The notes under the pieces are model-generated. The model had not been told where the DNA came from. It ran no database searches and was given only the letters and a program-made list of their open reading frames with translations. The position numbers and the translations under genes were made by a program. A stretch of 53,064 bases of DNA from an uncultured Planctomycetaceae bacterium (GTDB lineage Bacteria > Planctomycetota > Planctomycetia > Pirellulales > Thermoguttaceae), in NCBI GenBank assembly GCA_964505295.1, contig CAZDHR010000002.1, positions 1 through 53,064 of the forward strand, given 5' to 3'. This document shows positions 5,138-43,988 of this stretch, in pieces (position 1 is the stretch's first letter; every line of letters begins with the position of its first letter).

Positions 5138-5539
5138 ATCTCATGGTGCGTAGAATCATCGAGTCGTCGGACTGGGCAGAGACCGGCGATGCGCGCGCGG
5201 ACTTGGAACGGACGGTCTACCGACGGCTGCACGGGTGGTGAACCGAGGGCGGCCGACGGGAGCCCGGTTTTTCGGGCATTCGCGTTTGACGCACCGACAA
5301 TCAACAATGGAGCAGACTTCAATAGATGCAGACGATGCAAACTGCCTTCCCTCACGCGAGACGGGAAGCGCGTTGAGCGACGCCCAGACGAGAACCGGAG
5401 AAGTGACGGATGGGGAGAAGAGAGACGGAGTCCTCCGCCTTCAAAAGGACTATAGGTCGATTTGCCCGTGGCGTCCGAGCCCCTTTAGGGAATCCCCGGG
5501 AAACCTCCGAGGAATCCCTGTCTCACTGGGGAAGAGGCG

Positions 5540-7290: not shown

Positions 7291-10200
7291 CCAATTGACG
7301 GTCGGGACCTCGATTCGATAGTCTTCCACCTCGCCGTCCGGGGCGGTGCCGGTGTACGGCACGTCTTGCCATGTGTTCTCGTCGTACAGCCGCACGACGC
7401 TGTCATCCTCCCAGGTCCACTGCCACGTGCTGAAGCGGAATCGGGCGTAGGTGTCTCCGGGCATTGCATCGGCCGGGACATCGAAGGTGACGTAGTTTGT
7501 GACGCTGGGGCCCGGGGCGAGCTGCACGGCGTAGCCCGTGCCGTTCGGCCCCTGCATATCCAAGTGTTCCCCGGGATCGTCCCAGTCTCCGTCCCGGTTA
7601 AAATCGATCCAGGCACTGAGCCATGCCCCCTCGGTGGTGACGTTGTCGGTAGTGACAACCTGCAACGTGAGGGGCATGCCGGGCGTGATGCCCTCCAGCC
7701 CGAACACGCCGTTCTCGTCGTCGTGGTCAGGGTCCGGGTCGGCGTCGTCCCCGGTCGCGGCTTCGCTGGGAATCCCGTCGTCCTCGACGTCCAGGCTCGA
7801 GCCGTCCGGAGCTTCCGCACCCAGGTACAGCTCCTTGTTTTGCAGATGACGGGCGCCGTTGTCGGCCAGCAAGGTCGGATAAGGCGCCGGCGCGTCGCCG
7901 AAGTCCATGTCGCCGTCGTCGTTGAGGATTGCGATCACCGCCTCGGTCTCGTCGACGGCCACGCTCTGCGTGCCGGGAGTCACCACGACAACCTGCGCCT
8001 CGGCACTGAGAACCTCCAAGAGGAAGGTCTCATCCAGTTCGACGTCCGTATCGCCGTTGATCTCCAAAGTGACCGTGAAGGTCAGCGCGGGCTCGGCCTT
8101 GGTGGCGACGAGGATCTCGAAGTCCTCGCCGTCGTGGTACCTCCAAGCCATCATTTCTTCGGAGATCTGCGGATACCAGTCGAACGCGTCGTTGTCCGAC
8201 AGGTTGATCGGGATCCGGTCGGCGCCGAACTCGTAGTAGTAGACCTCCCAATCCGTGCCGTCCCAGGTGTGCCAGACCGCGTAGTTGCCGGCCACCCGAG
8301 GATGCTCGTCGCTCAACGAGCTGTTGGAGATGTTCACGGCCGCGGCGCCCGAGGCGGCGTTGGCGACGTTGCTGTAGAAGATTTCCCAGTTCGTGCCGAC
8401 TAGGCCCTGCCAGACCACGTTGTTACCGGAGATGTGCGGATCGATGTCATCCGCGGCGTCGTCGGTGAGCTGGAACGTGGCGCCGAAACCCGTGTTGGGA
8501 TCGAACGAATGGAGGAAGACCTCGTCGTCCACCCCGTCGTCGGCGACCCAGAGGATGTTGTTGCCGTCGATCGATACGGAGTGTTCCGAGAGCGTGTTGT
8601 TGGTCACCTGGGTCTTCACTCCGGAGGCGCCGGCTTCCGCCCGGAACAGATACACCTCCAGGTCGGTGCCGTCGCTGCCGTACCAGGCGACGTTCGAGCC
8701 GGAGATTCGAGGATCGTAGTCATCGAAGTTGTTGTTGGAGATGTCCTGCGGCGCGCCGGCGGCGGCGATGTCGTAGAGGAAGATGTCCTGGTCGGTGGGC
8801 GTGTGGCCCGTCCAGGCCACATGCGAATCAGATACCTGCGGCATCTTGTCGTCGTAGTCGTTGTCCGTCAGTCGGACGGTCGTCGACGTCGTCGTTTGAG
8901 TCGTCAGGTCCGTCACTCGGGTGCACAGATAAATCTCATAGTCCCCGGCGTTCGGGTCTACGGGGTCTTCGCCCTCTGGGATACCCGCCCAGACGACGTG
9001 GATGGTCTGCGTCGTGCCCTCGGTGAACTTGTACACGCTGGCAAGTTTGTCGTCCGTGCTGTTATTGGTGAGCCGTTCAGGCGACTCCATCGTCGTGGCG
9101 TCGTACAGGAAGATCTCCCAGGTCTCCCCGACGCCGACCGGGGACTCGTAGACGAGGCTATCGCCGGAGATCTGGTAATCGTAGTCGTTGGATCGGTCAC
9201 TCGTGATCGTCTCGGTGGTCCACTCTTCCAGAGGTTGACCGTGTGGGTCAATCGTGATCGACGAGTCGACGACAGTGTGGTAATCTGCATCGCTGGGATC
9301 GGGCGCCGTCGGCCCGACGAGATCGCCGCCTCGGGCCGCGGTGGGGTCGGTATCCGGGTTGCCGGTCTGCTGGGTTTGGTACTCGATCGTGATGGGAGCA
9401 CCGAAGGACTCCGTCACCTGGAACGTGACTTCAACCGTCGTGGTCGGATCAATGCCCGAATTCCCTTCCACCACGGTCGCGTCGGCGACCGTGACGTGCG
9501 GGACCTTGTAGTTGCCGAAGTTGACGCCCGCCAGCGCCTCGCCCGAGCTTAGCTCCACGGTGTAGTAGCCGGCCTCCCGGCTATGGGAGCCGGCGTTGGA
9601 CGTCAGCCGCGTGGTTCCGGCGTCGAACGTCACGAGGTCCCCGGTCAGCGTGACGGTTCCGCCGATCGAGCTGGCAGTGATCAGGAAGGACGCGCTCGAC
9701 ACCGAATTCACGGCCGTCCGAATCGCCCTGGCCACCGTCGTTCTCGAATCGCCGGGCGTGAACGGCACCCGCACCGCCGAGGCGTTGCTTACCACGTTGT
9801 CACTATCCAACTCGAACACGACCATGGCATCGCCGTCGCCGATGGAGAAGGTTTGCCGGTCGGTGACGTTGGCCACCTGAGAAGTGCCGACGCCCGGGAC
9901 GGCGACGTCCATGCTGCCGCCGGCCAGATAGAGGTCGTCGCTGTTGGGGGCCGTCTGGAGCCAACCCGACGGAACGACTTCGTTAACCGTGTAGGACCCG
10001 TCGAACAGTCCTGGGAATTCGTAGAACCCCGTCTCGTCGACGCCCGTCGTCAACGGGTCGTCCGCCATGGTGACCGTCGACTTGCCGTCCAATTCGATGG
10101 TCACGCCGGCCAAGCCGGGCTCGATTCCCAGCGGGAGGCCGGTGCTCGGATCGAATCGGAACGCGTACTGGACGTTCATGGCGTCCAGGTCCGCCTGGCT

Positions 10201-13200
10201 CGACGGACGAGCCAGGCTGTAGTAATCGGTGAAGTTGCCGCTGTCGAAGCCGATTTCGGCCCCGCCCCCGCCGAATCCCCCCGCGCCGCCGTCACTGTCA
10301 CCCGTCGTCCACGACAGATCGACCACGTTGTCGCCGTTGGCGTCGTAGTAGTGGAACGCGACGATGTCGCCGCCGAGATCGTCCTCGATATGGAGCGCGA
10401 AGCTGTTGCGTGCGTCGGTATTGCTTCCACTCGTGCGATCGTTGTAGCCGACGTTGACCCAGTCCACCTGGACGAACGGGTTACCGCGCTCGGTGGTTCC
10501 GGTGGCCAGGTGGACGCTGCCGCCGTTGTCGCGCGTGTCCACGTCGGCCCAGAACGGGGCGATCATGGGCATGTACTGCGCGAACCCGGCGACTCCGGGA
10601 GTCCTCTGGTAAGGCCCGAGGAACGTGATGTTCCCGTTGTTGTTGATGTAGAACCGGTCGTACGTCTGCCCGTAGAACTCGAAGTCGAACCCGAACGAAA
10701 TCGCGCTGGAGTAAAGGTTGTCGTTGGCCGACACGTTGTTATACGGCACGCCGTCGCTGTCGTAGCCCGACATCAGGACGCCGACGCCCGGGGAGACCGG
10801 CTCGATCACGGGAGCAACCCCGCTGGAGGCCGGCTCTTGATCCCAAACGCCGTCGCCGTCCAGGTCGTTGAACACGTAACCGCCGATCGACGCGTCGCCG
10901 ACCTCGATGTGGACTCGATAGTCCTCGACCTCGCCGGGGGCGTCGGACCCACCCGTCGGAGACTCGACTTCGGTGTCAACCGAACTGAACCGGAACCGAG
11001 CGAAGGTCGTCAAGGCGTTCAGGCTCGACGGCACGACCAGCCTTTGCGCGTCCACTTCCGGCATCGCGAGCAAGTCGGCCAGATCGTAAGTCGTCGTGAC
11101 TCCCGTCGTCCCCAAGGGCACCGCGGAGAGAATCTCTTCCCAGATCTCGTTGCCTTGGGCGTCGGTGTAGGCACTCTCGGCCCAAACGTTGTCTTGGTTG
11201 TAATCAACCCAAGCGCTTAGGTAGCCCTCGCCGGTGACCGTTACCTGCAAGCCCTCGATATGGTTGCCCACAGCGAACCGGGTCCAGGTAACGCCGTCTT
11301 CGTCGTCGCCGTACGCTGGGTCCGCGGCGAACTCATCGTTGTCGTCGCCCTCGGCGATCGCGTCCGGCTGGCCGTCGGCCTCGGGGTCGACCAAGTAACC
11401 GAGGTATATCTCTTCCGAAACCGCATGGCTGGCACCGTCGTCGGCAGCCAGCGTCACATAGGGCAGGGGCGCGTCGCCGAAATCGAGCCCACTATCATCG
11501 TTGAGGATCACGATCTCGGCTTCGTCTTGCTCGATTACGACTTCCTCGACGGCGACCGTGTTCAGGTCCACCACGTCGGCGCCGTCGATGATCAGGCTGA
11601 ACGGCTCATCGTACTCGACGTCCGTGTCGCCGAATACGACCAGCGGAATCGTGACCGTCACTTCCGGCTTGGCCCGCGTGGCCACGATCAGCCGGTACAC
11701 TTCGCCGTCCAAGGCCCGCCAAACCACCAAATCCTCACTGACGACAGGATATCGGTCTTCCAGGTCGAAATCGGCGGAAACGTTCTGTGAAGCCATCGCC
11801 GTATCCAACCCGCGGTACATGACTTCCCAGTTGCCCCCGAGTTGCTCCGACTCCCACACGACCTGATCGCCTTTGATCTGGGGATTCCCGTCGTCGAAGT
11901 AGGCATTGGCGGAGACGTTGACCTTCGCCCCGGAAGACACTTGGTAGCGGAAGATGTCCCAGTCTCCGCGGCCGCTCGGATCGGAGTCGTAGCCCTGCCA
12001 CACCACGTTGTCCCCAGACACCTCGGGCGTGTTGTCGTTGTACGCGTTATCCGTGATCCGGGTGAACGTCTCCGATTCGATCTGGTAAAGGAAGATCTCG
12101 TAGTCGCCGCCGTCGTGGCCTCTCCAAACCACGTTGGAGCCGTCGATCCGAGGCGAGCGATCCGTCAAGGTGTTGGTGGTGATCGCAGTAACGGCGGGCG
12201 TGCTGGAATCGCCGTCGGTATCGTTGTGCAGATTGTAGAGGTAGATCTCGAAGTCCTTGCCGTCGTCCCCGTACCACACGACGACGGTATTGGTGACCGC
12301 CGCGCCGCCGGAGCCTATCTGGTAGCTGGAAATCTGCGGCTCGAAGTCGTCCAGACCGGCATGGTCGTAGATCCGGTCGGAGAGGTTGGCTATCCCACGC
12401 GTGCCGACGTCGTAGAGGTAGACTTCACGGTCGGTAGCGGTCTCGCCCCACCACGTCACGTAGGAGCCCGACACCTGGGGGTCGCCCACCTCAAAGAGAG
12501 TGTGGGTCACTTGGGTCGTGGCCCCGGTGTTGATGTCGTAAAGGAAGATCTGCGAATCGTCGCCCGTACCGCCGGTACCGAACACGCCGTCGTGGCCGAC
12601 CCAGGTCACGTAGCCAGTCGCCCCGTCCTCCGACACGTACATGTTCACGGCGTAATCGTCCGTGTCATTACGGGTGATCTGGATGACGGCGTCGGTCTTG
12701 GCGTCATAGAGGAAGATTTCCGTATCCTCGGTGCCGGTGCCACTGCTCCAAACGACGTAGTCCTCTGAGACGGCGTACGACGACACTCCTCCCGGAAGCT
12801 GGATGGAGCCGTCCCGCGTCGCCGGGGATGTCGTGTCTTCCTTGGTACGAAAATAGCGCGGCGCGTCCTTCTCCTCGACCGGGCCCGACGTGCCTCCCGC
12901 GGAATGGGAAACGACCATTTGCTGAAGGAAGTCGTCCCACTGCGTGTCGGCGACGAACTCCAGGGTCGAGTTGTATGCGGAGTGGACCGTGTCGCCCTCA
13001 GCGGGCAGGTAAATCGACAAACCGGTCGCGGTGTAGTACGCGCCGGAGTACACCTCCACCACGGCGGCGTCCACCGCCGCCTTCACCTGGCCCGCGGCCG
13101 TGACGATCGCCGGAGCCACCGACGCGGCCTCCACCAGGCTCATGAAATGGCCCAGATCGCGGAACTCGGGATCGCCGAACCCCTGGGCCGCGTCGCGCGC

Positions 13201-16200
13201 GGCTTGCACGGCATTCCAGTCCGCCGTGGTGGCCGACGTAATCATCAATTCGGCGAACCCCTCCAACTCGCCGACCAAACCCGTGGTTGCGCTGCCGAGT
13301 TGGCTGAGGTCCGTCGCCGTGAACGTATCCGTCGGATATCGCAACGCGTAGGCGTCGACGATCACGCTTCCCAGCGCGGCGGCGTCCATTCCGGGGTCGC
13401 TCACCAGCGGCCCGAGGATGTTCTGATACTCCCATCCGTCCCAGGGCTCCGTCTCCTCGCAGGCCGCCATGACGTCCGCCTCGTTGCCAAGCTGATAGGC
13501 GATTTCGGTCATGCTCATCAAGCAGGCGTCGAAACCAACGACCTGCAAGTGGGGAAGTGCGTCCATCGCCACGGCCAACTCGTCCATTTCGAGATTGTCG
13601 AAACTCGTGTCGTCGTAGCAGAAGCCGTAATACCCGCTCCCATGGTCCCAGAACACCAGAGCGTAATTCGACGACGGGTACTCGGTCATCGCCCAGTCGA
13701 CGAAGTCGACGACCGTGTCCGGGTTGCCCATGTTGACCTCTCCAAGGCCGATGCCCCAGTTGCCGTCGGGGACATCGCCGGCCTCGACCAGGCCTCGCCG
13801 CGCGCCGGTCCAGTTGCCGTATCGGGTGTCATAACCGAAGATGCGGTCGAACTGGACGACGACGTTCACGTCGCCAGTGGAGCCGACGCTGGCCATTTCC
13901 AGGAAGTCGTCGATCGCGGCGTCCTCCAGGTTGCAGTCGCCGTCCAGGTAGACCATGAACGTCCAACCGACCGCCGCCGCCGAGCTTCCCCCGCCGAGCA
14001 CCGCGATCGATTCCGAGGTCCACGCTCCCAGCGGCGGACTCTGCGGGTCGATGGTGACCTGCTCCGCGTACGCCGGATCCGACGGAAGCACCGCCGTATC
14101 GGCGTCCTGGTAGTCGTCGCCGCCCTCGGCGCCATTGGGCGGATCGCCGTCTTCGGTGTGGTAGTCAAGCGTGATCTCGGCCCCGAACGATTCGGTCACG
14201 TGTACCGTGACCTCGACCGGCGTTTCTCCCAAGTCTCCTTCGCCCACCCAAACGTCGGAGACCGCGATCACGGGCTTCCGGAAGTTGCCGAAGTTCGCGA
14301 TGCTGAACAGCTCTCCGTCCTCCAGGTAAACCCCGTAGGACCCTTCTCCCGTCGTCCCGTCCACTTGACTGAACGACGTAATGTCTTCCAGCGGGCTGCT
14401 GGTGTGCTGGGAGAACTCTACGGCGGCGTCGCCGACAGCCCTCAAGATTACGGAATTACCCGTTACCGATGCGGAGACGTCCAGCCTCCCCACACGGTTC
14501 ACCGCGCCTGCGATGGCCGTGGCGACCTGCGCCGCGGTGGTGGCGCCGCTCACGTTGACGAGCACGTTGGTCGAACCCGAGTTCCCGTCGCCGTTCAGGT
14601 CGAACTCGAACCGGACGCGGTCAGTCCCGTCGAACACCTCGAACCACTCGGATTCCTCGAGGTCCTGCTTCTCGACGGTCTGGATTTGCAGGACGCCGGT
14701 AGGCACGTACTCGTCTTGATTCGGATACGTCTGAAGCCAGTCGCTCCAGGCATCCAGACCCGGAATCTCGGCCTGAAGCCGTCCGAGTTCCGTGGGCTCG
14801 ATGTCTACTTCCTCGCGGACCACGAAATAAGGCGTCGCGAGGCCCGGATACTCGCTGCTGGCCAACAGCCTGTCGAACTCATAGTAGCCCGTTTCGTCCA
14901 CGTCGGACGTGGACAGATCGTCCTCCGTGGTGAGCGTCCACGGTTCCGGGACTACACCGTTCGGGAGGTCGTAATCGAAGTCGAGACTTCCGTTGTCGTT
15001 GAGGTCCAGGTAAACGAGCGCGCCGGCCAAGCCGGGCTCGGGGTCAATGGGCACGCCGGCGGTCGGGTCGATCCGGAAGGAGTACTGCTCGATCTGAAGC
15101 AATTCCGACAGGGTCATTGGATCGTCGGGCCGCATCACGCTGAGGTAGTGAGCGCCGTCGCCGGCGTCGAACCCGATCTGAGCGCCCTGCCCTCCGAACC
15201 CGTTGCCGGTCCCCGACCGGTCGCCGGTGGTCCACTCCATCGCCGCGTACTGGAAGATCACAATATCGCCTGCCGCATCGTCCTCGATGTACACCGAGAA
15301 CGTGTTGCGAGCGTCCGTGTTGCCCGAGTCGGTCTGATCGTAGTATCCCACGTCGATCCAGTCGACCTGGACGTACGGCTTGTCGCGCTCGCTGGTCCCC
15401 GTCGACCACCGCACTTCGCCGGCCCCGTTTCGCGTGTCCACGTCGGCCCAGAACGGAGCGATAATCGGGGTGGACTGGGGGAATCCGTCCGGCGAGAAGT
15501 CGCCCAGCGAATCCTCGAACGTGATGTTCCCGTTGTTGTTGATGTAGAACTGGGTGTACGTATTCCCATAGAACTCGAACGAGAAGCCCAGGTCGAGAAG
15601 ATCCGACGACAGGTCGTCGTTCGGGCCGACGTTCGTGTGGATCATACCGTCGCTGTCCCTGCCCGACATGAGCACCTGTTGGCCCGACCCGAGCGTGTTC
15701 AACGTGACCGCCGGCACGGAGATCGGCTTGCCCTCGGTGTTCCAGACGCCGTCGCCATTGACGTCGTCGAACTTGTAGCCGCTAATCTTGCCCTCGCCGA
15801 CCTCGATCGGGACCTGATAGTCCTCCACCTCGCCGAACGCCACCTCAAATCGCTCGGTGTCGGAATTCCAGAACCAGTATGCTGCGGTCGGAGATGCAAC
15901 GGCTTCCTCGATCGAACTGAGCCGGAACCGGGCATACGTGGTCATGTCGCCCAACTCGGCCGGGATGTAGACGTAGAACGTGCGAGTTGGCTGGCTGCCG
16001 TCGAAGTACCGTTGGTCTTCAGGGATAATCTCTTCGGAGATCGGGTTGCCGTCGGGGTCGAGATAGCCCGTGTCACCGTCCCAGACGCCGTCCCCGTTGA
16101 AGTCGATCCACGCATTCACGTAGCCGACGCCCGTCACGGTCACCTCGAACGTGGCGATCTGGCCCGGTGCCAGCCGGTCCCAGGTGACTCCGTCCTCGTC

Positions 16201-19200
16201 GTTTTCGCCGAGCTGCTGCCAGTAGACGTCCCGGTCGTCGCCCAGCGCGTTGCCGGCGGATAGCTGGCCGTCGGACTCGGGGTCGAGCAACGTGCCCAGG
16301 CACAACTCGACGTTTTCGTAGTTGCTGTCCCATTTGATTTGATGGTAGGCGCCGCCGTCGGCCAACAAGGTGGCATAGGGCGCCGGCGCGTCCCCGAAGT
16401 CCAATCCGACGTCGTCGTTGCGAATCTCGATTTCGGCCGTTCCGTCGTCGACCAGCACACTGCCGGTAATCGTGGTGCCGTCCTCAGGATCGACGACTTC
16501 CGCTCCCGTAACGTGCAGCAAGAACCATTCGTCCGGCTCCGGCGTGTAGTCGCCGATGACGTTCAACTGGATGGTCGCGGTCACAACCGGCTCAGCCTGC
16601 CTGGCCACCATCAGCCGATAGTCCGCGCCGTCGTAGGCTCGCCACACGACGAGGCTGTCGCTGAGGAGCGGATAGCGGTCCTCGCCGGCCGAATCCTGCG
16701 ATACGTTCTGCGGGATCGCTTCGGATCCCAGCCTGGTGTGCATGATCTCCCAGTTGTCGCCCAGGTGGTTCGACTCCCAAACTACCTGGTCGCCGATGAT
16801 TTGGGGATTGGCGTCCTCCAGCGAGGCGTTCGACGAGACGTTCGTCCTTGCCCGAGTGGGAATGTGATAACGGAAGATGTCCCAGTCACCGCGGTCGCCG
16901 GGCAGCACGCCGTCGTAGCCCTGCCAGACGACGTTGGAGCCGGAAATCTGTGGCGTATTGTCGTCGTTGTCGTTGGGGAGGTTGACCTGGGTGGTCGTGC
17001 CGGTGCCCGTGGCCGGGTCGTACTCGAACAGGAAGATCTCGTAGTCGTTGCCGTCGTAACCTCTCCAGACCACGTTGTTTCCGTCGATTTGCGCCCAGCC
17101 GTCCGTCACCGTATTGCGGGTCACCTCGACCACGCGATCGGCACCGGCGTCGTACAGGTAGATCTCGTAGTCCTTTCCATCGTATCCCTGCCAGACGACG
17201 TTGGAACCGGAAATCTGCGGGTCGTAATCGTCCAGCCCGGCGTGATCGTAGACCTCTGCTGAGATGTTCAGGGTGGTGTCTGCGGCAATGTCGTACAGAT
17301 AGATTTCCCGGTCGAGCGCCGTATCGCCCCACCAGACCACGTGCGTACCCGACACTTGCGGATCGCCGACGGCATAGGGGGTGTCGGTAAGCTGGGTACT
17401 CAGCCCCGTGTTGACGTCGTATAGGTAGATCTGGGAATCGTCGCGGGTCCCGCCGGCGCCGAGGTCGCCGTCGTGGCCGACCCAAACCACGTACGAGCCG
17501 GAGATTCGCGGCGACTCGTCGTCCGTTTCGTTGGCGGTAAGCTGGCGCATCGTCTCGGTGGCGGCGTCGTAAAGGAAGATGTCCAGGTCGTCTCCGTCCG
17601 TGGCCTCCCAGACGACGCGATCGCCGGATACGTCGTAGTAATACTCCGCCTCCGCCTCCTCCTCCATGATCAGCCCGGTGGTCGGATCGATCCGGACGAC
17701 CCACTGGCCCATCGCGTTGAGCACGTCCAGGTCCGCCCGGCTGTTGGGCCGCGGCAGGCCCTGGTAGTTGAGCCCGTCGCCGGAATCGAAGCCGATCTGG
17801 GCGCCTTCTCCGCCGAAGCCGCCCATCCCCTCGGCGTCGCCGGTGGTCCACTCCATGTTGTCGTACACGAAGGCGACGATGTCGCCCATCGGGTCATCCT
17901 CGATATAGAGCGTGAACGTGTTCGACCTGTCGGTCGTCGCATAGTAGTAGCCCACGTCGATCCAGTCGACCTGGATGTAGGCGTGGCCGTCGGCCGTCAC
18001 GCCCTGGGCTAACCGGACCTCTCCGCCTAGCTCACCGGTCTGCCAATCGGGGCGGGTGTCGACGTCGGCCCAGAACGGGGCGACGATCGGCGTGCTCTGC
18101 GGGAACCCGGCCGCTACGTAGGTCCCCAACGCCTGCGTGAACGTGATGTTGCCGTTGTTGTTGACGTAGAACTGCGTGAAGTTATTGCCGTAGAACTCGA
18201 ACGTGAAGCCCAGGTCAAGAAGCGCCGACGACAAATCGTCATTGGCGTACACGCCGGTGTACTGGAAGCCGTCACTGTCCCAGCCGGACATAGGAACCTG
18301 ACTACCTGGGGCCACGAGTTCGAAGTCAGGCGCTCCGGCGACCGCCTCCCGGGGATAAAGATTCCCGAGCGCTTCGGAACTCCAGACGCCCAGCGGCTCC
18401 TCCTGCGGTTCGATGATGAACGACTCGTAGTCCGGGTCCGTGGGATCCACCGCTTCGTAGTCGGCATCCGGATCGGGATAGGGGTCCTCCGTTTCGTTGT
18501 CGATCCCGTCGACGGCCGTGTCGTCCTCGGTCTGGTAGTCGATCTGGATCGTCGAGCCGAACGACTTGGTCACGTTGACCGTCACGTCGACCGTGGTCAC
18601 TCCCACGTCGCCTTCGTCCACCGAAACGTCGTCGATGCTCACGTGCGGCTTCCGGAAGTTGCCGAAGTCGGCGCCGTAGCCGGGTCCGTCCGCCCCGAAG
18701 TGCTCGCCCGCACCCAATCGGACCACGTACGCGCCTCCGAGAGTGTACGAGCTGATGAGGGCGATCGGACTGGTCTCTTGCTCGTAGACAAGCGACGCGT
18801 CCTCGTCCGTGGCCGTCAGCCTCAAGGTCACCACGCCGGCCGACGCCACGGCGGAAACCTGGAGATTCGTCGCCGTGCCGACCGCCGTGGCGATCTTCCG
18901 CGCCACGTCGTCCACCATATCGGCATCGGTAACGCTGATTGCAATGCGCCCGCTCAAAACGTCCGCATTCCACGAAGGATCATCGGTCTTCTCGAACTCG
19001 AACTCCTGCGTCACGGTCCCGTCGCTGATCGAGAACCACTGACCGTCTCTCAGAGGCGAATCGGGGTCGTTCGCGGCAACGGCGTTGAGTTCCAGCGTGC
19101 CTTCCGGCACGTAGTCCGGCTCGCTGGAGAGGGGGTCCGGATACGTCTGGAACCACTCACTGAACCACTCACTGAAATTCACGAATTCTTCCGGCACAAA

Positions 19201-31200: not shown

Positions 31201-34200
31201 CTCGACGTTGAACCAGAAGTTGTAGACGCCGCCGGGCACTCCGTCGGCGTCGCCGTCAAACCGAACGTTGTTGTCGGCGTCGACCAGGTACGTCGAGCCG
31301 TCGCCGATGAACGTGGACGGGTCGTCCGGATCGACCCCCTCGGGCGTGAAGTTCAGCCGCAGATCGTAGCGCCCCTGGGTAACGCCGCCGATACCCGTGT
31401 CGTCGATATTGGCGTCGTACATGTCGTTGCCGCTGGCCGTCACGCCGATGTAGTACGTGCCGGCCTCCAGGTACATCTCGAGGTAGGAGTCCTCGCTGTA
31501 GTAATCGTCGTTCTGGGCGAGCGCCCGATAGGTGGCCACCGGCTCTCCGTCCACGAAGGTCACGTACTGCTCGTACAAGACCAGCGTGGCGTCGAGCAGG
31601 CTCGAATCGTCCATGCGCTCGGCGAAGACCTCGGCGCTGAACACGCCGTCCTCGCCCAGCTCGAACTGGTACATGTCGATGTCGATACTCTCCGGACGGT
31701 AGAGGTGCCGCCCATGCACGACGTCGTTATCGCCCGGGTAGACCGAGTCGGCCGTGCTGGTGTAGTTCTCAATGTCCTCGTATCCCCCCATGATCGTTCC
31801 GATCGGCAGGTCGTACGCGTGCCCGAACCCGAGGTTGTGCATGATCTCGTGCATCGCCACGTTGAACCAGCGTCCGCCGTAGTGGCCGGGATCGGTGCGA
31901 AAATCCTCGAAATCCATCAGGGCCAATCCGTTCCCACCAACCCCCGCCACCTCCCCGGGACCCGACTCCAAGCCCACCGCGATCAAGTCGCCGGTTGCCA
32001 CTTGAATCCCCAGACTCTCCGTTTCGTAGAACTGGACCCCGAGGTAGTAGCCGAGCAGCTCGAAGATCTCCCGGGCGCGGTCCTTCTGCGCTTCGGTAAT
32101 CAAGTTGTGAAGCGGCTTGCCTTGCGCATCGTACCCGTACACGTCGGCGAAGTTGTACGGGATGGTCGTGACGCCGTCGACCGAATCGGCGTTGATGTCC
32201 GGGATATAGCTGCCCAGGAAGTCCGCGAAGTGATCTTCGATGGCGATGCCTTCGTGCCACGACAGGTCGCGGTGGCCGGGCTCGTCGATGGCCCCCGGCC
32301 ACTCCAGGCCGTAGGGCTGCGCGTCGATACCCGCCGAAATGATCAGGCTCTGCGGCGAGTCGCCGGTTCCGAAACCGCCCAGCCCCTGCGCTTCGTGGAA
32401 CGTGTCGCCCGCGTCGACCGGAAGCGACAAGACCACCGCGTCGTCCACGGTGATCTCGTTGTTCAGATTGACCAGCGCGACGTCGGCCGCGTCGAGACCC
32501 TCGTAGTTGGGGTCCGAGCTGGTGGCCGCCGCCGTCATCGCCAAGAAGAGAACGTCGCCATCATCCTCCAGATCGTCGACACCCGTCACGGTCACGGTTT
32601 GGGGCACGTTCCAGTTGGCCGGCGTGAACGTGAGGGTCGCCGGCCCGACCGTCCCCTCGGTCAGGTCGTTGGAGGATAGCTCGATTGCGACGTCGGCCGC
32701 CGGCTCCGAGTCCAACACGACCGTGAACACGGCCGACCCGCCACGCTCCGTGGTCTCCAAGCCGGAGACCGGCGTGACCGTGATCCCCGCCGTGTCGTCA
32801 TCGAGATTGGTCACCGAGACGTTGGGCGGGTTGATCCCGTCATAGTTCGGATCGTCGCTGGAGGCGGCGCCGGTGATGATGGAGTACGCGATGTCCCCGT
32901 CGTCGACGAAATCATTCTGCCCGGTCACGTACACCAGTTGCGGCACGTTCCAGAGGTTCGCGTCGTCGAACGTCAAGCTCGAAACCGACACGGTCCCTTC
33001 TGCGGTGTTGCTCGACGCGATGGGAATGGTGACCGACGTGCCGGCCTCCAGCGCGAAATCGAGGACCACGCTGAACACGGCCTGCTCGCCCGACTCGGTC
33101 GTCACCAAGTCCGGAGTCTGCCGGACGGTGATCCCGGGGACGTCGTCGTCCTGATTGATCACCCAGACGTTGTCGGCATCAATGCCGTCGTACAACGGGT
33201 CGTTGCTCACCGCCGGGCCGGTCAGGATGGTATAGAGAGCGTCCCCGTCGGCGATCAGGTCGTCGACGCCCGTGACGGTGACCCCTTGGGGTACGTCCCA
33301 GTTGGCGGACGTAAACGTCAGGAAGGCCGGGCTGACCGTGCCTTCCGTGAGGTCGTTGGAATGAATCTGGATGGTCACGTCCTGGGTGGGCTGCGAGTTC
33401 AGAACCACGGCGAACGTGGCCACGTCGCCCGACTCGGACGTCAGAAGCGCGGAATTCACCTGCGGCCCTTGATACTGTAGGACCCGGTTGTTCCACATGC
33501 TCGCGACGTAGAGGTCGCCGTCCACCCCGAAAGCCAACCCGCGGGGCCCGTTCAGTCCGCCGCTTCCGCCGGTCACAAAAGTGTCGATCAACGCGCCGGA
33601 GTTGACGTCGTAGCGCAGGACGCGATTGTTGTTATCGCTGCTCACGTACAGATTGCCGTCGGGCCCGAACTGCAAATCGGTGGGGCCGCTCAGCCCGCCG
33701 CCCGACGCGAAGACGCCCAGGGAGGTCCCCGTTGCATCGTAACGGAACACTTGATTGGTCCCGTGGCTGGCCACGTAGAGGTCGCCGGTCGGGCTGAAAA
33801 CAAGCCCCCAGGGCTGAGAGACTCCATTAACAAAATCGTCGATCCACGCGCCCGTCGTTCCGTTATAGCGGCGCACCTGGTCGCTACCGAAACTCGACAC
33901 GTAAAGGTTGCCGTCGCCACCGAAGGCCAACGCCGTGGGAGTGGTCGGCCCATTAACACCGGCCGCTACAAACACCCCGTCAAACCCGGTCGTCAGGTCA
34001 TAGCGAAGCACGTTGTCCGAACCGAGGCCGGAGACATACAGCTTGCCGTCCGGCCCGAACGTCAGGCCCGAAGGCTGGGTGAGCCCGTCCGTGGCGGTAT
34101 CGGCGAAGACCCCGACGAATGCGCCCGTCGTTCCGTCATAGCGGAGAACCTGATTGGTTCCAGAACTGGCGACGTACAAGTCGCCGTCGGGCCCCCCGAA

Positions 34201-37200
34201 GACGGCGCCGCGGGGCGCACTGAGGCCGCCGCTGGCGAACGTGCCGAGGGACGTGCCGCCGCCGGCCAGCGTGCCGGTCGGAACGACGGTGAAGCCTGGG
34301 GCAAGCCCGTTGAGCCAAACCTTGTTCGGCTGATTGGCGTTGGTCACGAAGGCATCGGAGTCCCCGTCGCCGTCCAGGTCGCCCATCGCCACGTCGGTAC
34401 TGTTAGAGCTACCCAGCGGCGGCCACTGGCTGATCGTGAAGCCTGCGGAGCCGTTATTCAGCCAAACCTGATTGGCTTGGTTGTTCGTGTTCACCACAAA
34501 CGCATCGAGGTCGAAGTCGTCGTCCAAGTCACGGAGGGCGACCGCTTGGCCAAACGAGCCGCTCAGTCCCCCGCCGTAGAGTGTGAATATCCCTGCCCCG
34601 TCGTTCCGCCACACGCGGTCGGCTTGACCGCGGTGAACGGTAAAGGCATCGATGTCGCCGTCGCCGTCCAGGTCGCCGAGGCCGACGTCGGCCGTGTTAT
34701 AGGAGCCCAGGGTCTGGCTGGTATTGGTAAAGGTGGCGGCCCCGTTGTTCCGCCAAACCGTATCGGCCTGGGAACTGTTGTTCCCGACGAACGCATCCAG
34801 GTCGCCGTCGCCGTCCAGGTCCGCAACCGCCACCGACTGAGTGTTGCCGGCGCCGAACGAACTGTCCAGGGTAAAGGTTAAGCCGGTCGAGAGCCAAACC
34901 TCTTCGGCCTGCCCGGAATCGTTGCCGACCAGCACTTCCCAAGCGGAACCGGGGGCCAGGTTCGCCACGACGACGGAAGTGGTCGCGGCACTGCCCAACC
35001 TCTCGGTCGTCTCCAAGAACGTGCCACTAACCGCGTCGTATTCCCAGACCATGTTGGGCTGCGAATAGTTGCCGACAAAGGCATCCAGGTCCCCGTCGTT
35101 GTCGAAGTCCTCCAACGCCACGTCTCGGGTAGCGTAATACGCGTCGGCGAAGGTCAGCGTCTGCGCAAGGGTGAAATTACCCGTCCCGTCGTTAAGCCAC
35201 ACCTCATCCGGGGCCCCGTCGTTTCCGACGAAGGCGTCCAGATGCCCGTCGCCGTCGATGTCTCCCAACGCGACCGAAGAGCTTGGCCTGTTGACGACGT
35301 CCTCCCACCCACCGACAAACACGGCCCCGCCGCTTCCGCTCTTCGCCTTGCCGGTGCTTCCGGCGTCGTAGATAACGCGGATTTCGCTCGCCGACAACGC
35401 GCGGTCGTAGACGGTCACCTCGTCGGCCCGCCCATCCAGCGCCCAGTCGGTGCCGAGCGAGAACGGGGTTCTCCCGATATAAAACGTGGAGCCCGCCGAC
35501 GTGTCGAGGGCCACGGTGCCACTCCAGCCGAAGGAGTTGCCGTTCAAGTAGAGGGTGACTTGGTTGCCGACATTCGTTACCGCCACGTGGTACCACCGGT
35601 TTGTCGACAGAGTGGGGCCCGTAACGGTGCTCCCCCCCTGAGAGAAAATGAGCCGCCTGCCCTGCGTGCCGAGCCAGTAGGACTCGCCGAAGTCGTTGAA
35701 GTCGCCGTAGCCGGCGAAAAAGGCCCCCTCGGTGGGTTGGGAGGGCAACGAGTCGGCCCTGATCCACATTTCGATGGTCCGATCCTCGTTCCCCGTGGGC
35801 AGCAAGGCGGTCGGGGCCCGCACATAGTCGCGCACCGCGCTGGCCGTGTCGAACTGGAACGCCTCGCCCACGTTCCCCGTGTTGAACGTGGTATTGCCGA
35901 CCAGGTTCCCCTCGTTCGGGCCCGAGATGTCTTCCGCGTCCCCCTCGCCGGGCCACCAACTCACCAACCCGTCCGGGAGCTGTATCGAGGCCGGCGCCTC
36001 GTCGTCCAGGTTGGTCAGCGACACGTCGTCCGGGTCCAGGCCGCTGTAGGCCGAATCAGCGCTCGTGGCCGCGCCGATCACCACCGTGAAGCCAATGTCG
36101 CCATCCGGGATCGAGTCATCGACGCCTGTGACCGTAACGACGTGCGGCACGTCCCAACCCAACGTCCCGCCGGAAGTCGGCAGGAAGTGCAAGCTCCCCG
36201 GCGAGACGGTGCCCTCGGTGATGTCGCTCGATGACAGCGGCCAGAACCAGACGTCGCTCGTCGGTTGGCAGTCGAGTACGACGCTGAATTGCGCCACGCC
36301 GCCCTGCTCAGTGGTCACCGGAGCCGTGATCGGCGTAATCGTCACCCCGGCGTCGTCGGCGTCGAGGTTGGTTACCGTCAGGTCCGGGGCGAGCATGTTG
36401 TTGTAGTTCGCATCGGGACTGGAAGCCTGGCCCCTGACGATATAGGGGCGGTCACCGTCGGCAATCGGGCCCTCCGGGTCGGCCAGCCCGGTCACCGTCA
36501 CCGTCTGGGGCACGTTCCAGTCGGCTGAGGTGAATACAACCCGCCCGACGAAGGTACCAAGGATGGGATCGGTGACATCTCCTTCCGAGAAGTCCAAGGA
36601 AGAGAAGTCGATGGTCACGTCCGCCGTCGGCTCGACCGTGAGCACCACGTCGAACTGGGCCGTGCCGCCCTGCTCCGTCGTAAACAGGCCCGAGGTCGGC
36701 GTGATCTGGATGCCGGAGATGTCGTCGTCGAGGTTGGTGACGGTCACCTCCGAGTAGTCGGTCCCGTGGTACGCCGCGTCCATCCCGTGGTAGGGAGATG
36801 ACGTGTCGCTGCTGGAAGCCGGCCCCACGGCAATCGTGTAGACCTGGTCGCCGTCGTCGAGGTCCGGATCGTCATCGACCCCGGTGACGGTCACCGTCTG
36901 GGACACGTTCCAATTCGTCGAGTCGAACGTGAGCGTCGACCCCGAAACGGTGCCCTCGGTCTCGTCGCTGGAACTGATCGGAATGGTGACCGTCTCCCCG
37001 ACCCCCGGCTCCGACGTGAGCGTCACGGTGAACTGGGCCGTGTGGCGCGGGTCGTTCCCATCCTCCGTGGTCGTCAGCCCTGAAATCGGCGTGACCACAA
37101 TGCCAGGCTCGTCCTGCTCAACGGCCACGGGCCCCACCGCGGCGACCAAGTACAAGCCCTGCGTTTCGTTGGCCAGGTTGATCGCCTCCTCAATCGCCTG

Positions 37201-40200
37201 AGCCATTTCGGCGACGGTGTACCCCGGCTGGGCGGGCGAGACCCACGGAAGGAACCCAACCGGCACGGCGCCCGGTGTTACCAACCCGTTCGGCGCGGTC
37301 AGGTCCTCGAACTCGAACACCACCACCGCCGAGCCGTCGCTCAGCTCGAAGGTGACCCCGTCAGAGATCTTGCTCGGGTCGAAGTAGTTGGGATTGCCGG
37401 GATCGGGCGGGACGGAGAGGGCGCTGCCATTGAGGACGTCCAGCGGGCCGGCGTCGACGACCTCGGCGGCCATCGCCGTCGTGTCCACCACGTGATACTC
37501 GGTGCCGATCCGCAGACGAAACGCCCCGGTGCCGTAAGTGGCCAAATCGAACTCGAACGTCAGCACGGCCATGTTGGCGTCGGCATCGTAGCTGACGTCG
37601 ATCGGCAAGATCGGCGTGCCGTCGTCGTCGGGCCTGGCCGTGTCTTGCGTCACCAGGAGTTGGTAGAACTCCACCGTCTCGGCCGCGTCCAGGTCCAATT
37701 CGTCGTCGTTGAAGTAGACTTCGATCGTGTCGCGTTTCTGGGTGAGACTCTCCACCGTGAACGGCAGCGCGCCGGGGAAGAACCTCGCGCCACCTCCGGC
37801 CAACACGACGACGTCGGCCCCCGCATCGGGGACGAGGGTCACGGTGACGTTCTCGAGCGCGCCCGCCGTGATTTGAGCATCGATGGCGGCCACCATCGCC
37901 GCGGCCACGGCGTCCGCGTCCGCGGCGCCTTGAATATCGACGATCCCCAAGCCGGTCGTGCCGTCGTCGCGGAACTCGAAGACCGCCGTGTTGTCGCCGT
38001 CGTACACGCTGAACGTGTCGCCCGTGCTGATCAAGACCGGATCGATCCCGGCGACCCGGACGTCCCCTCGCTCGATCGGTTGCGGGACCACGGCGACGAC
38101 CTGCGAGCCGAGATCGAGCTCGAAGTCGAAAACGAGGTCTTCCCCATCGCGGAAATTCATCCCGTAGACGTTCGTCAACGCCGGCACCGCCACGCCTTCG
38201 ATGTCGGTGTAGCCGTCGGCTCCCACAATGATCATTTGGTAAAGATCATCGGGGAGCGTTTCGGCGAATCGCACGATCACCTCGTTCTCGTTATCGCCGA
38301 TCCCGATCCACCCGATTTCCACGATCTGGTCGTCGCCGTCGCCGAAGGTGCCGTTCACGCTGCGAATAAACTGAATCGACGGTTGGCCCGTGGTATCGCC
38401 CAACGTGACCCGCGACTCCTCAATCTGCGTTCCCTCGTTGAACCGGAGCAGAAGCTCCTTCGGGGCGATGTTCAAGACGTCGCCCTCGTCCATCAGGTCA
38501 CCCTCGTTGGGAATGACGGCGATCAAGTCCGGTGCCGAAACGCCCAAGGGGGCCGCGCCCGCCAACAACGTAAAGTCTTGATCCGTGACGTTTCCGGTAT
38601 GGCCGACGTGAATCGTGTACGTTCCGGCGACCGGCACGTCGATGACGACCTGCTCCACGTTATCAATATGGTTTGCCGTGGTGCGGACCGCGGCGGCCGA
38701 AGGATTCGCCGGGTCGAGTGTCCACGGGTAATGGGTCCCGTCGGGCCCGGTCACCCACAGGTCCAGGTCGTTCACCAGCACCGACGTGGAGACGTCCAAG
38801 CCGGCACCCTGGTCGGTCCCGGCCGGGTCGGTCCAGACGAGGGTGGCCTTTAGCTGCGTGCTTCCATCGGAAACGATGTCCGCCGTCCATCCCGTGCCGT
38901 CGTAGTTCGCCTCCTGCAACACGTAAGTCGACGCCCCCGTGGCCGAGCTGGTGACGAACTCCGCCGCGTCGGCGACGTTCACCAGCCCCCAGCCGTACGT
39001 GTAGTCCGGACCGACGTTTCCGGCGTCCGTGGCCATGTGGATCAGCAAGCCTTTGGTGGTCGCGCTAAGCGGGGCGGAGCCACGCTCGTTCTCGAAATGC
39101 TCGGCAAGCAACACGGCCGACCCCGTCACGTTCGGAGCCGACATCGAGGTGCCGCTCCAATCGTAGGTGTCTCCCTGCGCCGGATCGCCGTCGTAGGCCG
39201 TGTTGCTGAGAACGCCGCTGGTGTCGTACGCCACCGACGAGTGAACCTGGTAGCCGTTGCCGACGACGTCGGGCTTGATCCGCCCATCGTCGGTCGGTCC
39301 ATAGCTGGAGAACGACGTGACGTTGACGTCGGCGGCCGTATACGGATCGGCAGTCACGTCCTCGACGGCCCCCACCACCAACGAGTTCTTGGCCGTCTGC
39401 ATGTTCGACAGCGTGTCGTAGCCGCCGTCGGCCACCCCGTCCCTGCCGGGCGCGGAGACGTCCGAATCGAGGACCAGGTACCAGTCGGCTCCGGCCCAAC
39501 CGGCCAGGCCGGGATCGACCGAGAAGTAGGTTATGTAGGCGCCGTCCCCGTTGACGTCGTAGAAGAAGCCGTCCCCGTCGGAATCGAAGAACTCCTCATT
39601 TCGATCGTTTCCCGCCGCCCAAACGCTCAGCAAAGTCGGGTTGGCGTAAAGGACTTGGTCCAGATTGGCGGTAAACGAGTCGTATTTCCCAAAGCCTTCG
39701 TCTTCCGTGCCCAAGGACCGATCGCCGTACCATACGGCGATCCAGCCGGTCGTCGTCGAGACGCCCGGCCAATTCGCCACCGGCTCGATGGTCCAACCGC
39801 GAACGTATCCGTACGAGTGGTTCGACGCATCGATCAGCGACGCCTCGCTGGCCAACTCGGCGACGTCGTCGCCGGGATTGGCGTCGTTGAAGATGTTGTA
39901 ACTGAGGAGGTTGATGTCGATCCCCATCCCCTTCGCGCTCGAATCGACGCCGGAGGCCGCGATCGTCCCGGCGACATGCGTCGGGTGGTCCTCGTAGGTC
40001 CCGCTGTCGGCGAGCGTGACGCGGCTCCCGCCCGTCCCGTCGCCGAATTCCTGATGGGTTTCCAGGATCAGCCCGCCGTCCCAGACGCCGACGGTGTATC
40101 CGTCGCCCTCCAGGCCCAAACCGGACACGCCCCCGACCTTGAGCTGGTCGGCGTTGGTCGTGTCGGCGGCGTTCACGTTGTACAGCACGTGAACCGGCTC

Positions 40201-43978: not shown

Positions 43979-43988
43979 GGGGAAAGTA

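What the first reader, a model, noticed from the sequence alone, without database searches (positions are those of the whole stretch)
9691..38022. Eleven copies of a ~55-aa 'FEFD' module that I cannot assign to any known domain family
Seen in sequence. The copies are at 37861-38022, 37165-37359, 29821-29991, 27850-28044, 25162-25227 (half), 24946-25119, 24478-24654, 23581-23745, 18865-19044, 14482-14652 and 9691-9858. They share the consensus G-x-x-F-x-[ILV]-x-[DN]-G-x(3-7)-[VIT]-x-F-E-F-[DE], then 15-35 variable residues, then an amphipathic segment [DT]-x-x-x-[VI]-A-x-x-[IMV]-x-x-A-[IV]-[NDH]. Examples are GHTFSIFDGSTKVVFEFELG...DVALAVRDAINGA and GEYFDLVDKDGNTVRFEFDSD...EVADAVAARINSA. The copies are scattered through the whole protein, usually between larger domains. 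Each super-module has exactly one. Inference: a small beta-hairpin-plus-helix domain, possibly a linker or interaction unit, that may be undescribed.
Basis: seen in the sequence. Interest (0 to 1): 0.7.

Follow-up and report, generated by a model that had tools for sequence, protein, structure and literature searches.

The report
Unannotated repeat domain in planctomycete giant protein
The 'FEFD' repeats are a real, widespread protein domain of about 80-120 residues that current family databases do not model; it sits between the working domains of giant secreted proteins of Planctomycetota, most likely as a structural building block.

Summary
All listed copies lie in frame in one 11,513-aa ORF (window 5869-40410, minus strand). 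Held-out profile scores are 24-45 bits, against at most 1.6 bits in shuffled controls.

Its predicted layout is a beta-hairpin (DGxTFxIxDG...VxFEFD), a variable loop, a strand, a 14-19-residue helix ending in A-I-N, then two or three more strands (AlphaFold2 pLDDT 82.5).

The "half copy" is not a remnant. It is the front of a split module that carries a complete second module in its variable loop (pLDDT 89, pTM 0.82). This arrangement is conserved in orthologues and seen 37 times in 151 proteins.

The family has at least 2,010 representative clusters. Most top hits are 2-8 kaa proteins, and every named one is from Planctomycetota. Copies are often tandem with a 90-120-aa period.

No Pfam-A or NCBIfam model covers it, and Foldseek finds no significant PDB match. 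Weak but recurrent local similarity links the strand-helix-strand half to surface-exposed outer domains: the Flagellin_IN motif (19.7 bits, cut-off 22.7), flagellin and FliD, and phage tail sheath. One uncharacterised phage family matches better (phrog_18828, E=1e-5).

Best reading: an undescribed extracellular structural or scaffold domain. This function is inferred, not shown.

The parts
5869..40410 (-). Host gene: 11,513-aa giant secreted multidomain protein. It has an N-terminal basic stretch plus FEERMLLS (LExRxLL[AS]-type planctomycete leader). Pfam domains: Peptidase_S8, Laminin_G_3, FG-GAP, NHL, Beta_helix, PPC, GEVED, NIDO, SdrD_B, Calx-beta, Peptidase_C11.
   Evidence: orthologues at 35-58% identity and a 99.7%-identical database fragment, P0117
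37795..38031 (-). FEFD module 1 (aa 794-872)
   Evidence: family HMM 40.1 bits; held-out score 24.1 bits
37114..37377 (-). FEFD module 2 (aa 1012-1099), with a longer b3-helix loop
   Evidence: 47.1 bits; held-out 30.7 bits
29707..30015 (-). FEFD module 3 (aa 3466-3568), the copy that was modelled
   Evidence: 62.6 bits; AlphaFold2 pLDDT 82.5, pTM 0.77, layout b1 b2 b3 helix b4 b5 b6
27700..28065 (-). FEFD module 4 (aa 4116-4237)
   Evidence: 61.1 bits; held-out 38.7 bits
25168..25245 (-).
   Evidence: N-half HMM 14.0 bits; family HMM positions 4-28; strands E24-28 and E34-40 in the model
24871..25143 (-). FEFD module 5 (aa 5090-5180), nested inside the variable loop of the split module
   Evidence: 60.6 bits; AlphaFold2 of aa 5041-5340 gives pLDDT 89.1, pTM 0.82; arrangement conserved in 14 orthologous or paralogous regions
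24721..24840 (-). Strand b3 plus helix (aa 5191-5230) that completes the split outer module.
   Evidence: family HMM positions 25-61, 10.4 bits; C-half HMM 12.2 bits; E166-169 and H176-192 in the model
24400..24666 (-). FEFD module 6 (aa 5249-5337)
   Evidence: 55.7 bits; matches phrog_18828 at E=2.4e-5
23482..23772 (-). FEFD module 7 (aa 5547-5643), degenerate motif (FMFL)
   Evidence: 42.0 bits; held-out 28.0 bits
18811..19059 (-). FEFD module 8 (aa 7118-7200), in super-module copy 1
   Evidence: 57.6 bits; super-module duplication
14392..14667 (-). FEFD module 9 (aa 8582-8673), in super-module copy 2
   Evidence: 53.6 bits
9589..9879 (-). FEFD module 10 (aa 10178-10274), in super-module copy 3
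   Evidence: 63.6 bits

Best explanation
The FEFD repeats are copies of an autonomous extracellular alpha/beta domain of about 80-120 residues. An N-terminal beta-hairpin (DG-x-TF-x-I-x-DG ... V-x-F-E-F-D) is followed by a variable loop. After the loop comes a strand-helix-strand-strand unit (V-x-I-x-F, [ST]-x-x-x-V-A-x-x-I-x-x-A-I-N, G-L-x-L-x-A, G-x-G-x-V-x-L-x-G).

Planctomycetota, here a Thermoguttaceae-like member of Pirellulales, use it as a structural building block in giant secreted or cell-surface proteins. It occurs singly between enzymatic and binding domains, as in this protein. Elsewhere it forms head-to-tail arrays with a 90-120-aa period, or is nested with one module inserted in the variable loop of another.

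I infer that it acts as a rigid, solvent-exposed spacer or scaffold that positions the peptidase, lectin-like, propeller and beta-helix domains, and not as a catalytic unit. Its strand-helix-strand half resembles, and may share ancestry with, the dispensable surface-exposed outer domains of flagellin, FliD and phage tail sheaths.

Shown: the repeat is real; its true length; its predicted fold; the nesting; its abundance; the taxonomy of named members; the absence of a database model. Inferred: extracellular location, structural role, and any relationship to IN-type domains.
For: - Real repeat: held-out scores of 24-45 bits against at most 1.6 bits in shuffles.
- True unit size: conservation runs past the helix. 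Tandem start-to-start spacing peaks at 90-120 aa in 150 relatives. Family-HMM envelopes are 79-122 aa.
- Fold: AlphaFold2 pLDDT 82.5, pTM 0.77, layout b-b-b-helix-b-b-b.
- Nesting: N-half, full module, then C-half in that order at aa 5056-5230. The order is conserved in orthologues. The N-N-C-C order occurs 37 times in 151 proteins. The 300-aa model has pLDDT 89.1, pTM 0.82 and matching secondary structure.
- Abundance: 2,010 representatives at E<=1e-3 and 181 at E<=1e-30, with 5-23 stretches per protein.
- Taxonomy: every named relative is from Planctomycetota. Of 89 N-complete relatives, 56 carry the LExRxLL[AS] leader.
- No model: no Pfam or NCBIfam hit on copies, consensus or FEFD-rich proteins. 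P0005 (2,649 aa) and P0067 have no family at all.
- Structural rather than catalytic: conserved positions are F, I, V, L, A and G in core and turn positions, plus D9, E25 and D27. There is no conserved H, C, S or K.
- Extracellular context: co-occurring domains are extracellular (S8, C11, LamG, FG-GAP, GEVED, NIDO, Calx-beta; dockerin and cadherin in P0001).
- Link to outer domains: Flagellin_IN is the top Pfam hit for the consensus (E=9.5e-4). Flagellin 4nx9, FliD 6iwy and tail sheaths top the PDB profile searches. phrog_165 (tail sheath) is hit by the consensus and by three natural copies, and phrog_18828 at E=1.3e-5.
- Parallel in flagella: FliD D3 is a loop insertion of D2 and the FliD head domains are dispensable (PMC8533109).
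Against: - No experiment bears on function or location.
- The window protein has no canonical signal-peptide prediction here; secretion is inferred from the leader motif and the domain content.
- Conserved exposed acidic residues (D9, E25, D27) could mark a binding or metal site rather than pure scaffolding.
- The link to IN-type domains is statistically weak. It is below Pfam's threshold (19.7 against 22.7 bits). The flagellin match has a compositional bias of 7.1 bits from the Ala-rich helix. hhalign against a shallow FliD alignment gave P=0.034, probability 0.8%. Foldseek against the PDB gave nothing below E=0.09.
- I could not inspect model coordinates, so the nesting rests on sequence order, secondary structure and pTM, not on contacts.
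Confidence: 0.6

Rival explanations
1. The module is a binding unit, for a glycan, a surface, a protein partner or Ca2+. Its conserved exposed acidic residues (D9, E25, D27 and the DG turns) would form the site. Copies next to each catalytic or lectin domain would supply adhesion or avidity.
For: D9, E25 and D27 are conserved at 62-87%. E25 and D27 alternate with the core phenylalanines of strand b2 (V-x-F-E-F-D), so they should face outward (the side-chain orientation is my inference). FliD head domains have been linked to adhesion (PMC8533109). Many neighbouring domains (Calx-beta, dockerin, cadherin-like) depend on Ca2+ (established knowledge of those families).
Against: There is no match to any known binding-domain family. 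DG/NG turns are ordinary hairpin turns. There is no DxDxDG or other canonical Ca2+ motif. Long tandem and nested arrays are more typical of stalk domains. Nothing was tested directly.
Confidence: 0.2
2. The module is simply a divergent member of the known Flagellin_IN family or tail-sheath outer-domain superfamily. On that reading it is a known domain in a new host, not a new family.
For: Flagellin_IN is the most frequent Pfam match (3 of 80 members) and the best one for the consensus (E=9.5e-4). Flagellin, FliD and tail sheath dominate the top PDB sequence hits. phrog_165 (tail sheath) is hit repeatedly at the same positions. E. coli FliD 153-183 aligns in register: helix-AIN, then GVSAS, then GNG, then a strand.
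Against: Every score is below the family threshold or local, covering about 35-70 residues. hhalign gave P=0.034. Foldseek against the PDB was not significant, with TM at most 0.40. The most conserved part of the module, the FEFD hairpin, has no counterpart in the IN motif. The helix is about four residues longer than in FliD.
Confidence: 0.3
3. The module is an intramolecular chaperone, pro-domain or inhibitor that serves the peptidase domains (S8, C11) of the giant protein.
For: The host protein carries S8 and C11 peptidase domains, and the next gene encodes a C25 peptidase. Protease pro-domains are small alpha/beta units (established knowledge). The alpha-lytic protease pro-region appears far down the Foldseek list at E=2.4.
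Against: There are ten or more copies for two peptidase domains, and most copies are far from them. FEFD-rich relatives such as P0005 and P0067 have no peptidase domain at all. The structural match is not significant.
Confidence: 0.03
4. The FEFD motif is a compositional coincidence in a low-complexity, Asp/Gly/Thr/Ala-rich giant protein.
For: One FEFD tetrapeptide (aa 952-955) does lie outside any module.
Against: Held-out scores are 24-45 bits against at most 1.6 bits in shuffles. An independent family HMM gives 40-64 bits. There are 2,010 relatives and confident AlphaFold2 models.
Confidence: 0.01

Closest known systems
Flagellin hook IN motif (Pfam PF07196) and the outer domains that carry it (flagellin D2, FliD head domains D2/D3)
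   Same: Both have a strand, a helix ending in A-I-N, a G-[VL]-x-[AL]-[ST] strand, a G-x-G turn and a further strand, in the same order. Flagellin_IN is the top Pfam match of the consensus. Flagellin 4nx9 and FliD 6iwy are top PDB profile hits. Both are surface-exposed, non-catalytic domains. FliD D3 is inserted in a loop of D2, and FEFD modules nest in the same way (PMC8533109).
   Different: Scores stay below the Pfam cut-off (19.7 against 22.7 bits). hhalign and Foldseek are not significant. The FEFD hairpin, the best-conserved part, is absent from the IN motif. The helix is longer. The host proteins are non-flagellar giant multidomain proteins of Planctomycetota.
Outer (protruding) domain of contractile-phage tail sheath proteins (phrog_165; PDB 8fop, 9hz7, 9cb9)
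   Same: There is a local match of strand b3 plus helix (module ~36-73 against sheath ~123-170). It is seen with the consensus (E=1.2e-4), three natural window copies (E=0.002-0.007) and PDB profile searches (E=0.011-0.11). Both are surface decorations of a large assembly.
   Different: Only about 35-50 residues align. The rest of the sheath protein is unrelated. There is no FEFD hairpin. tblastn of the consensus against 50,697 phage genomes found nothing.
phrog_18828 (phage protein family of unknown function) and large 'Baseplate protein J-like' phage proteins in BFVD
   Same: This is the best statistical match covering the hairpin through the helix: module 7-74 against profile 79-143 of 265, E=1.3e-5, and E=2.4e-5 for a natural copy. 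Foldseek against BFVD gives E~1e-3, probability 1.0 and TMq 0.5-0.6 to 0.8-1.3-kaa phage proteins.
   Different: The function of these phage proteins is unknown. Identity is 17-24%. I could not retrieve their sequences to test reciprocity.
All-beta stalk repeats of giant bacterial adhesins (Ig-like Big, cadherin-like, Calx-beta, NCBIfam tandem-95 repeat)
   Same: They show the same deployment: units of about 100 aa, in tandem arrays or between functional domains of very large extracellular proteins. They co-occur in the same proteins (P0001, P0006).
   Different: The FEFD module has a 14-19-residue helix and an alpha/beta layout. The tandem-95 and cadherin hits lie outside the FEFD copies. Nested self-insertion is unusual for those repeats (my own knowledge).

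Membership tests
Pfam Flagellin_IN (PF07196) | Score at or above the curated gathering threshold (22.7 bits) | tested here: not met
   Ten window copies gave one hit, at E=5. Of 80 family members, 3 hit, best E=0.015. The family consensus scored 19.7 bits, E=9.5e-4.
Pfam Flagellin_IN (PF07196) | Sequence signature: strand, helix ending in I-N, then a G-V-x-A-S-type strand | tested here: met
   Family columns are A57 83%, I58 70%, N59 45%, then L64, A68, G73 and G75. The register matches E. coli FliD 140-185.
Pfam Flagellin_IN (PF07196) | Significant profile-profile similarity | tested here: inconclusive
   hhalign against a shallow, enterobacterial FliD alignment gave P=0.034, probability 0.8%. 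No deep Flagellin_IN alignment was available.
Pfam Flagellin_IN (PF07196) | Occurs in flagellar axial proteins (flagellin, FliD, hook and junction proteins) | tested here: not met
   The host is an 11,513-aa protein with peptidase, LamG, FG-GAP, NIDO and other domains, and no flagellin N- or C-terminal domains.
Phage tail sheath (phrog_165; PDB 8fop, 9hz7) | Similarity over the sheath core domains | tested here: not met
   Only module 36-73 aligns, to positions 123-170 of 493.
phrog_18828 (unknown function) | Significant HMM match | tested here: met
   E=1.3e-5 for the consensus and 2.4e-5 for the window aa 5056-5337 region. The match is local, profile 78-143 of 265. The family has no known function, so membership says nothing about function.
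NCBIfam tandem-95 repeat (NF012211) | HMM match over the repeat | tested here: not met
   A consensus FEFD dimer gives no hit. In P0006 and P0001 the tand_rpt_95 stretches (2755-2844 and 2094-2197) lie beyond the last FEFD copy.
Ig-like, cadherin-like and Calx-beta all-beta repeats | All-beta sandwich, no long helix | tested here: not met
   The predicted helix covers residues 48-66 of the module and is seen in all three modules of the 300-aa model. No Pfam hit to these families falls on FEFD copies.
Any solved fold (PDB) | Foldseek E<=0.001 or TM>=0.5 | tested here: not met
   The single module's best hit has E=0.53, TMq 0.40. The triple module's best hit has E=0.097, TMq at most 0.22.
InterPro member databases other than Pfam and NCBIfam (CDD, SMART, Gene3D, SUPERFAMILY, PANTHER) | Any model covering the module | not testable with these tools

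The most novel reading that the evidence does not exclude
The FEFD module is a previously unrecognised, phylum-wide domain family. It would be an evolutionary offshoot of the same strand-helix-strand 'IN-type' decoration unit found on flagellar filaments and caps and on phage tail sheaths. Here that unit is fused to a new beta-hairpin and able to insert recursively into its own variable loop, giving Planctomycetota a branching alpha/beta building block for giant surface proteins.
Probability: 0.3. Interest if true: 0.55.

Novelty: new variant of a known kind. Interest (0 to 1): 0.4.

Why it matters
Giant proteins of Planctomycetota are among the largest bacterial gene products and are largely unannotated. 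A model for this module would label ten or more stretches in this protein. It would also cover at least 2,010 cluster representatives, including proteins such as P0005 (2,649 aa) that now have no annotation at all.

The module also documents recurrent nested self-insertion of a small alpha/beta domain. If its weak link to flagellin, FliD and tail-sheath outer domains is confirmed, it would show that one decoration unit has been reused in flagella, phage tails and planctomycete surface proteins.

It is a domain-discovery result, not a new mechanism. No function is demonstrated.

Tried and rejected
- The search for homologous proteins with the copy alignments A1 and A2 gave nothing, then four short fragments. 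The word index plus the 5.8-billion-sequence E-value is too harsh for a 60-100-aa profile. The exhaustive representatives search was what worked.
A 301-aa segment was used instead.
- tblastn of the consensus against phage genomes found no match.
- A FliD-segment search meant to build a deep Flagellin_IN profile returned only close enterobacterial fragments. The hhalign test was therefore weak.
- A literature search for 'FEFD' or 'VTFEFD' found only unrelated acronyms. 'Flagellin hook IN motif' appears in one unrelated proteomics paper.
- 'Tandem-95 repeat', the name NCBI gives relative P0006, was considered as the identity of the module and rejected.
- The protease pro-domain idea was rejected on copy number and on FEFD-rich proteins that lack peptidases.
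- Compositional coincidence was rejected.
- I could not inspect model coordinates. Strand order, the position of E25 and D27, and inter-module contacts were therefore not examined.

Full report
**1. The observation**

The window holds one enormous ORF on the minus strand, 5869-40410, 11,513 aa. An HMM built from the copies finds ten full copies and the 'half' at aa 5058-5082. It also finds a weak helix-only piece at aa 5191-5230.

The repeat is far beyond chance. I held out each copy in turn, and held out the three paralogous C-terminal copies together. The held-out copy scored 24-45 bits. The best score in 20 locally shuffled versions of the protein was 1.6 bits. FEF[DE] occurs nine times against 0.16 expected. 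One FEFD, at aa 952-955, is a chance tetrapeptide in another domain.

**2. True size and shape**

Alignment with flanks shows that conservation continues after the helix, through 'L-x-V-x-A ... G-x-V-x-L-x-G'.

An exhaustive profile search of 1.84 billion representative proteins found 2,010 proteins at E<=1e-3, 741 at E<=1e-10 and 181 at E<=1e-30. The top hits are mostly 2-8 kaa long and carry 5-23 matched stretches. In those proteins the start-to-start spacing of successive copies peaks at 90-120 aa.

The consensus of 261 non-redundant instances is AGGGGGIADGETFTITDGTNTVTFEFDSDGGVTPGNVAIPFTATDTAAQVAAAIAAAINAAAGLGLTATALSGNGRVHLGGAANHTVDVSGTPSLTVSG. A family HMM built only from these foreign instances finds all ten window copies at 40-64 bits, with envelopes of 79-122 aa.

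AlphaFold2 was run on window aa 3467-3572 with an 80-sequence family alignment. It gave pLDDT 82.5 and pTM 0.77. The elements are b1 (10-14), b2 (19-25, carrying FEFE), b3 (38-41), helix (48-66), b4 (71-77), b5 (80-86) and b6 (91-93). The 'hairpin plus helix' is its front two thirds.

**3. The half copy is half of a split module**

Separate HMMs for the N-terminal hairpin and the C-terminal strand-helix-strand unit give this order in the window protein: N-half at 5059-5080, a complete module at 5090-5180, a C-half at 5191/5201-5230, then another complete module at 5249-5337.

Fourteen related regions, most from orthologous giant proteins, keep this order. After the inner module they have the typical 'G-x-V-T-P-G-x-x-P-V ... 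M-T-x-x-E-V-A-x-x-I-x-x-x-V-N' continuation of the outer module. The tightly spaced N-N-C-C order occurs 37 times in 151 proteins.

AlphaFold2 on aa 5041-5340 gives pLDDT 89.1 and pTM 0.82, with secondary structure that fits three modules, one of them split. I could not inspect coordinates. The nesting therefore rests on sequence order, conservation, secondary structure and the high pTM.

**4. Is it a known family?**

- Pfam-A (2025): nothing for the ten window copies apart from one Flagellin_IN hit at E=5.
- No family is shared by the 80 members. Flagellin_IN is the commonest match, in 3 of 80 members, best E=0.015.
- The whole giant protein shows S8, LamG, FG-GAP, NHL, beta-helix, PPC, GEVED, NIDO, SdrD_B, Calx-beta and C11. 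Nothing falls on the FEFD stretches.
- NCBIfam: nothing consistent on the copies or on aa 1-7000 of the host protein, which holds seven of the ten copies and the split module.
- FEFD-rich relatives P0005 (2,649 aa) and P0067 (510 aa, six copies) have no Pfam family at all, and P0005 has no NCBIfam family either.
- NCBI calls relative P0006 a 'tandem-95 repeat protein'. That repeat lies outside the FEFD copies, and a consensus FEFD dimer does not match it.
- Names given by sources to relatives (DVUA0089 family, choice-of-anchor L, PPC, GEVED, Ig-like, cadherin-like, VCBS, hypothetical) all come from other domains.
- The literature search found nothing.
- Foldseek against the PDB: best E=0.53, TMq 0.40 for the single module, and E=0.097 for the triple.

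**5. Weak but recurrent relatives**

The family consensus has Flagellin_IN as its top Pfam match. The score is 19.7 bits, E=9.5e-4, against a gathering score of 22.7. Module positions ~37-75 align to profile positions 13-47 of 55.

Profile searches of PDB sequences put the following at the top:
- P. aeruginosa flagellin 4nx9, E=0.0033, residues 152-221, with 7.1 bits of compositional bias;
- H. pylori FliD 6iwy, E=0.012 and 0.075;
- three phage tail-sheath proteins, E=0.011-0.11.

In PHROGs, the 'tail sheath' family phrog_165 is hit by the consensus (E=1.2e-4) and by three natural window copies (E=0.002-0.007), always at sheath positions ~123-170. The family of unknown function phrog_18828 matches module 7-74 at E=1.3e-5, and a natural copy at 2.4e-5. 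Foldseek against BFVD gives E~1e-3, probability 1.0 and TMq 0.5-0.6 to large 'Baseplate protein J-like' phage proteins.

Against homology with the IN motif, hhalign against a shallow FliD alignment is not significant (P=0.034). The register is nevertheless the expected one: strand, helix-AIN, GVSAS, GNG, strand.

For comparison, one paper states three things about FliD (PMC8533109). D3 is a loop insertion of D2. D3 resembles flagellin D2. The head domains are dispensable for filament formation. That is the same kind of nested, exposed, non-essential decoration.

I conclude that the strand-helix-strand half of the module resembles IN-type outer domains and may be related to them. The module fails the membership test for PF07196. 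Its most conserved part, the FEFD hairpin, has no counterpart there.

**6. Organism and context**

A 301-aa segment around copy 3 finds its best genomic relative (84% identity) in a Thermoguttaceae MAG. Further relatives are in Pirellulales, Pirellulaceae, Rhodopirellula baltica and Fuerstiella. The window protein starts with a basic stretch and FEERMLLS. The same LExRxLL[AS]-type motif is present in 56 of 89 N-complete relatives.

In the window protein the modules sit between larger domains. Three of them lie at the same place in a triplicated GEVED-NIDO-SdrD_B-FEFD-Calx-like super-module. The gene downstream on the same strand encodes a C25 peptidase with a P-domain.

**7. How it most likely works**

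Conserved positions are hydrophobic core and turn residues: F13, F24 (94%), F26, I/V39, A51, I54, A57, I58, L64, V77, L79, and G10, G18, G73, G75, G99. Three acidic positions are also conserved: D9, E25 and D27. There is no conserved His, Cys, Ser or Lys.

Four observations point the same way:
- the tandem and nested deployment;
- the extracellular partner domains;
- the resemblance to dispensable outer domains;
- the lack of catalytic-type conserved residues.

Together they suggest a self-folding structural spacer or scaffold exposed at the surface (confidence about 0.6). A binding role through the exposed acidic positions is the main functional rival (0.2). Whether the family is a divergent IN-type domain is a separate question of ancestry (0.3). 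A protease pro-domain role and compositional coincidence are rejected.

**8. Novelty and score**

This is an unmodelled, phylum-wide domain family with an unusual nested architecture. It is useful for annotating planctomycete giant proteins and modestly interesting for domain evolution. It is not a new kind of system, and no function is shown.

Rating: new variant of a known kind. Interest: 0.4.

Noticed in passing
window 467-5137 (-): The gene immediately downstream of the giant gene, on the same strand, encodes a 1,556-aa protein with Peptidase_C25 (gingipain-type), a proprotein-convertase P-domain and an SdrD_B-like stretch. With the S8 and C11 domains of the giant protein, the locus encodes three different peptidase clans.
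   Followed up: partly
window 35998-37122 and 32455-33453 (-), aa 1097-1471 and 2320-2652: At least seven copies of a repeat of about 110 aa, 42-63% identical, flank the LamG, FG-GAP and NHL region. Two representative copies have no Pfam match even at E<=1. This is another unassigned repeat family in the same protein.
   Followed up: partly
window 16606-17646, 11641-12777 and 8101-9213 (-), aa 7589-7935, 9212-9590 and 10400-10770: A further set of internal repeats, 26-53% identical, between the super-modules. No Pfam family was found for two sampled stretches.
   Followed up: partly
window ~18360-20610, ~14010-16170 and ~9210-11220 (-), aa ~6600-7350, ~8080-8800 and ~9730-10400: A super-module of about 700 aa is triplicated at 33-54% identity. 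Its order is GEVED, NIDO, SdrD_B-like, FEFD, Calx-beta-like. A Peptidase_C11 domain (aa ~8820-9163) follows the second copy.
   Followed up: partly
window 41693-45754 (-): A 1,353-aa ORF carries the full PriA helicase domain set only from residue ~629 onward. Either the TTG start is called too far upstream in this 69-70% GC stretch, or this PriA has an unusual N-terminal extension of about 600 aa.
   Followed up: no
window 37546-37557 (-), aa 952-955: An FEFD tetrapeptide in 'AVLTFEFDLATYG' lies in a different, beta-rich domain and is not a module (HMM score -2.8). The tetrapeptide alone is not diagnostic.
   Followed up: yes
loci L020 and L022 (NZ_JBIPLW010000056.1 and NZ_JBIPLW010000042.1): Two short contigs of a MAG labelled Flavobacterium sp. 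encode relatives of the planctomycete giant protein at 43% identity. This is most likely a binning contaminant rather than a true occurrence in Bacteroidota.
   Followed up: no
window 26830-33930 (-), aa 2161-4527: Database protein P0117 (2,385 aa) is 99.7% identical to this stretch of the giant protein. The same or a very close strain is therefore present in public data, but only as a fragment. The full 11,513-aa product was not returned by the searches made here.
   Followed up: no
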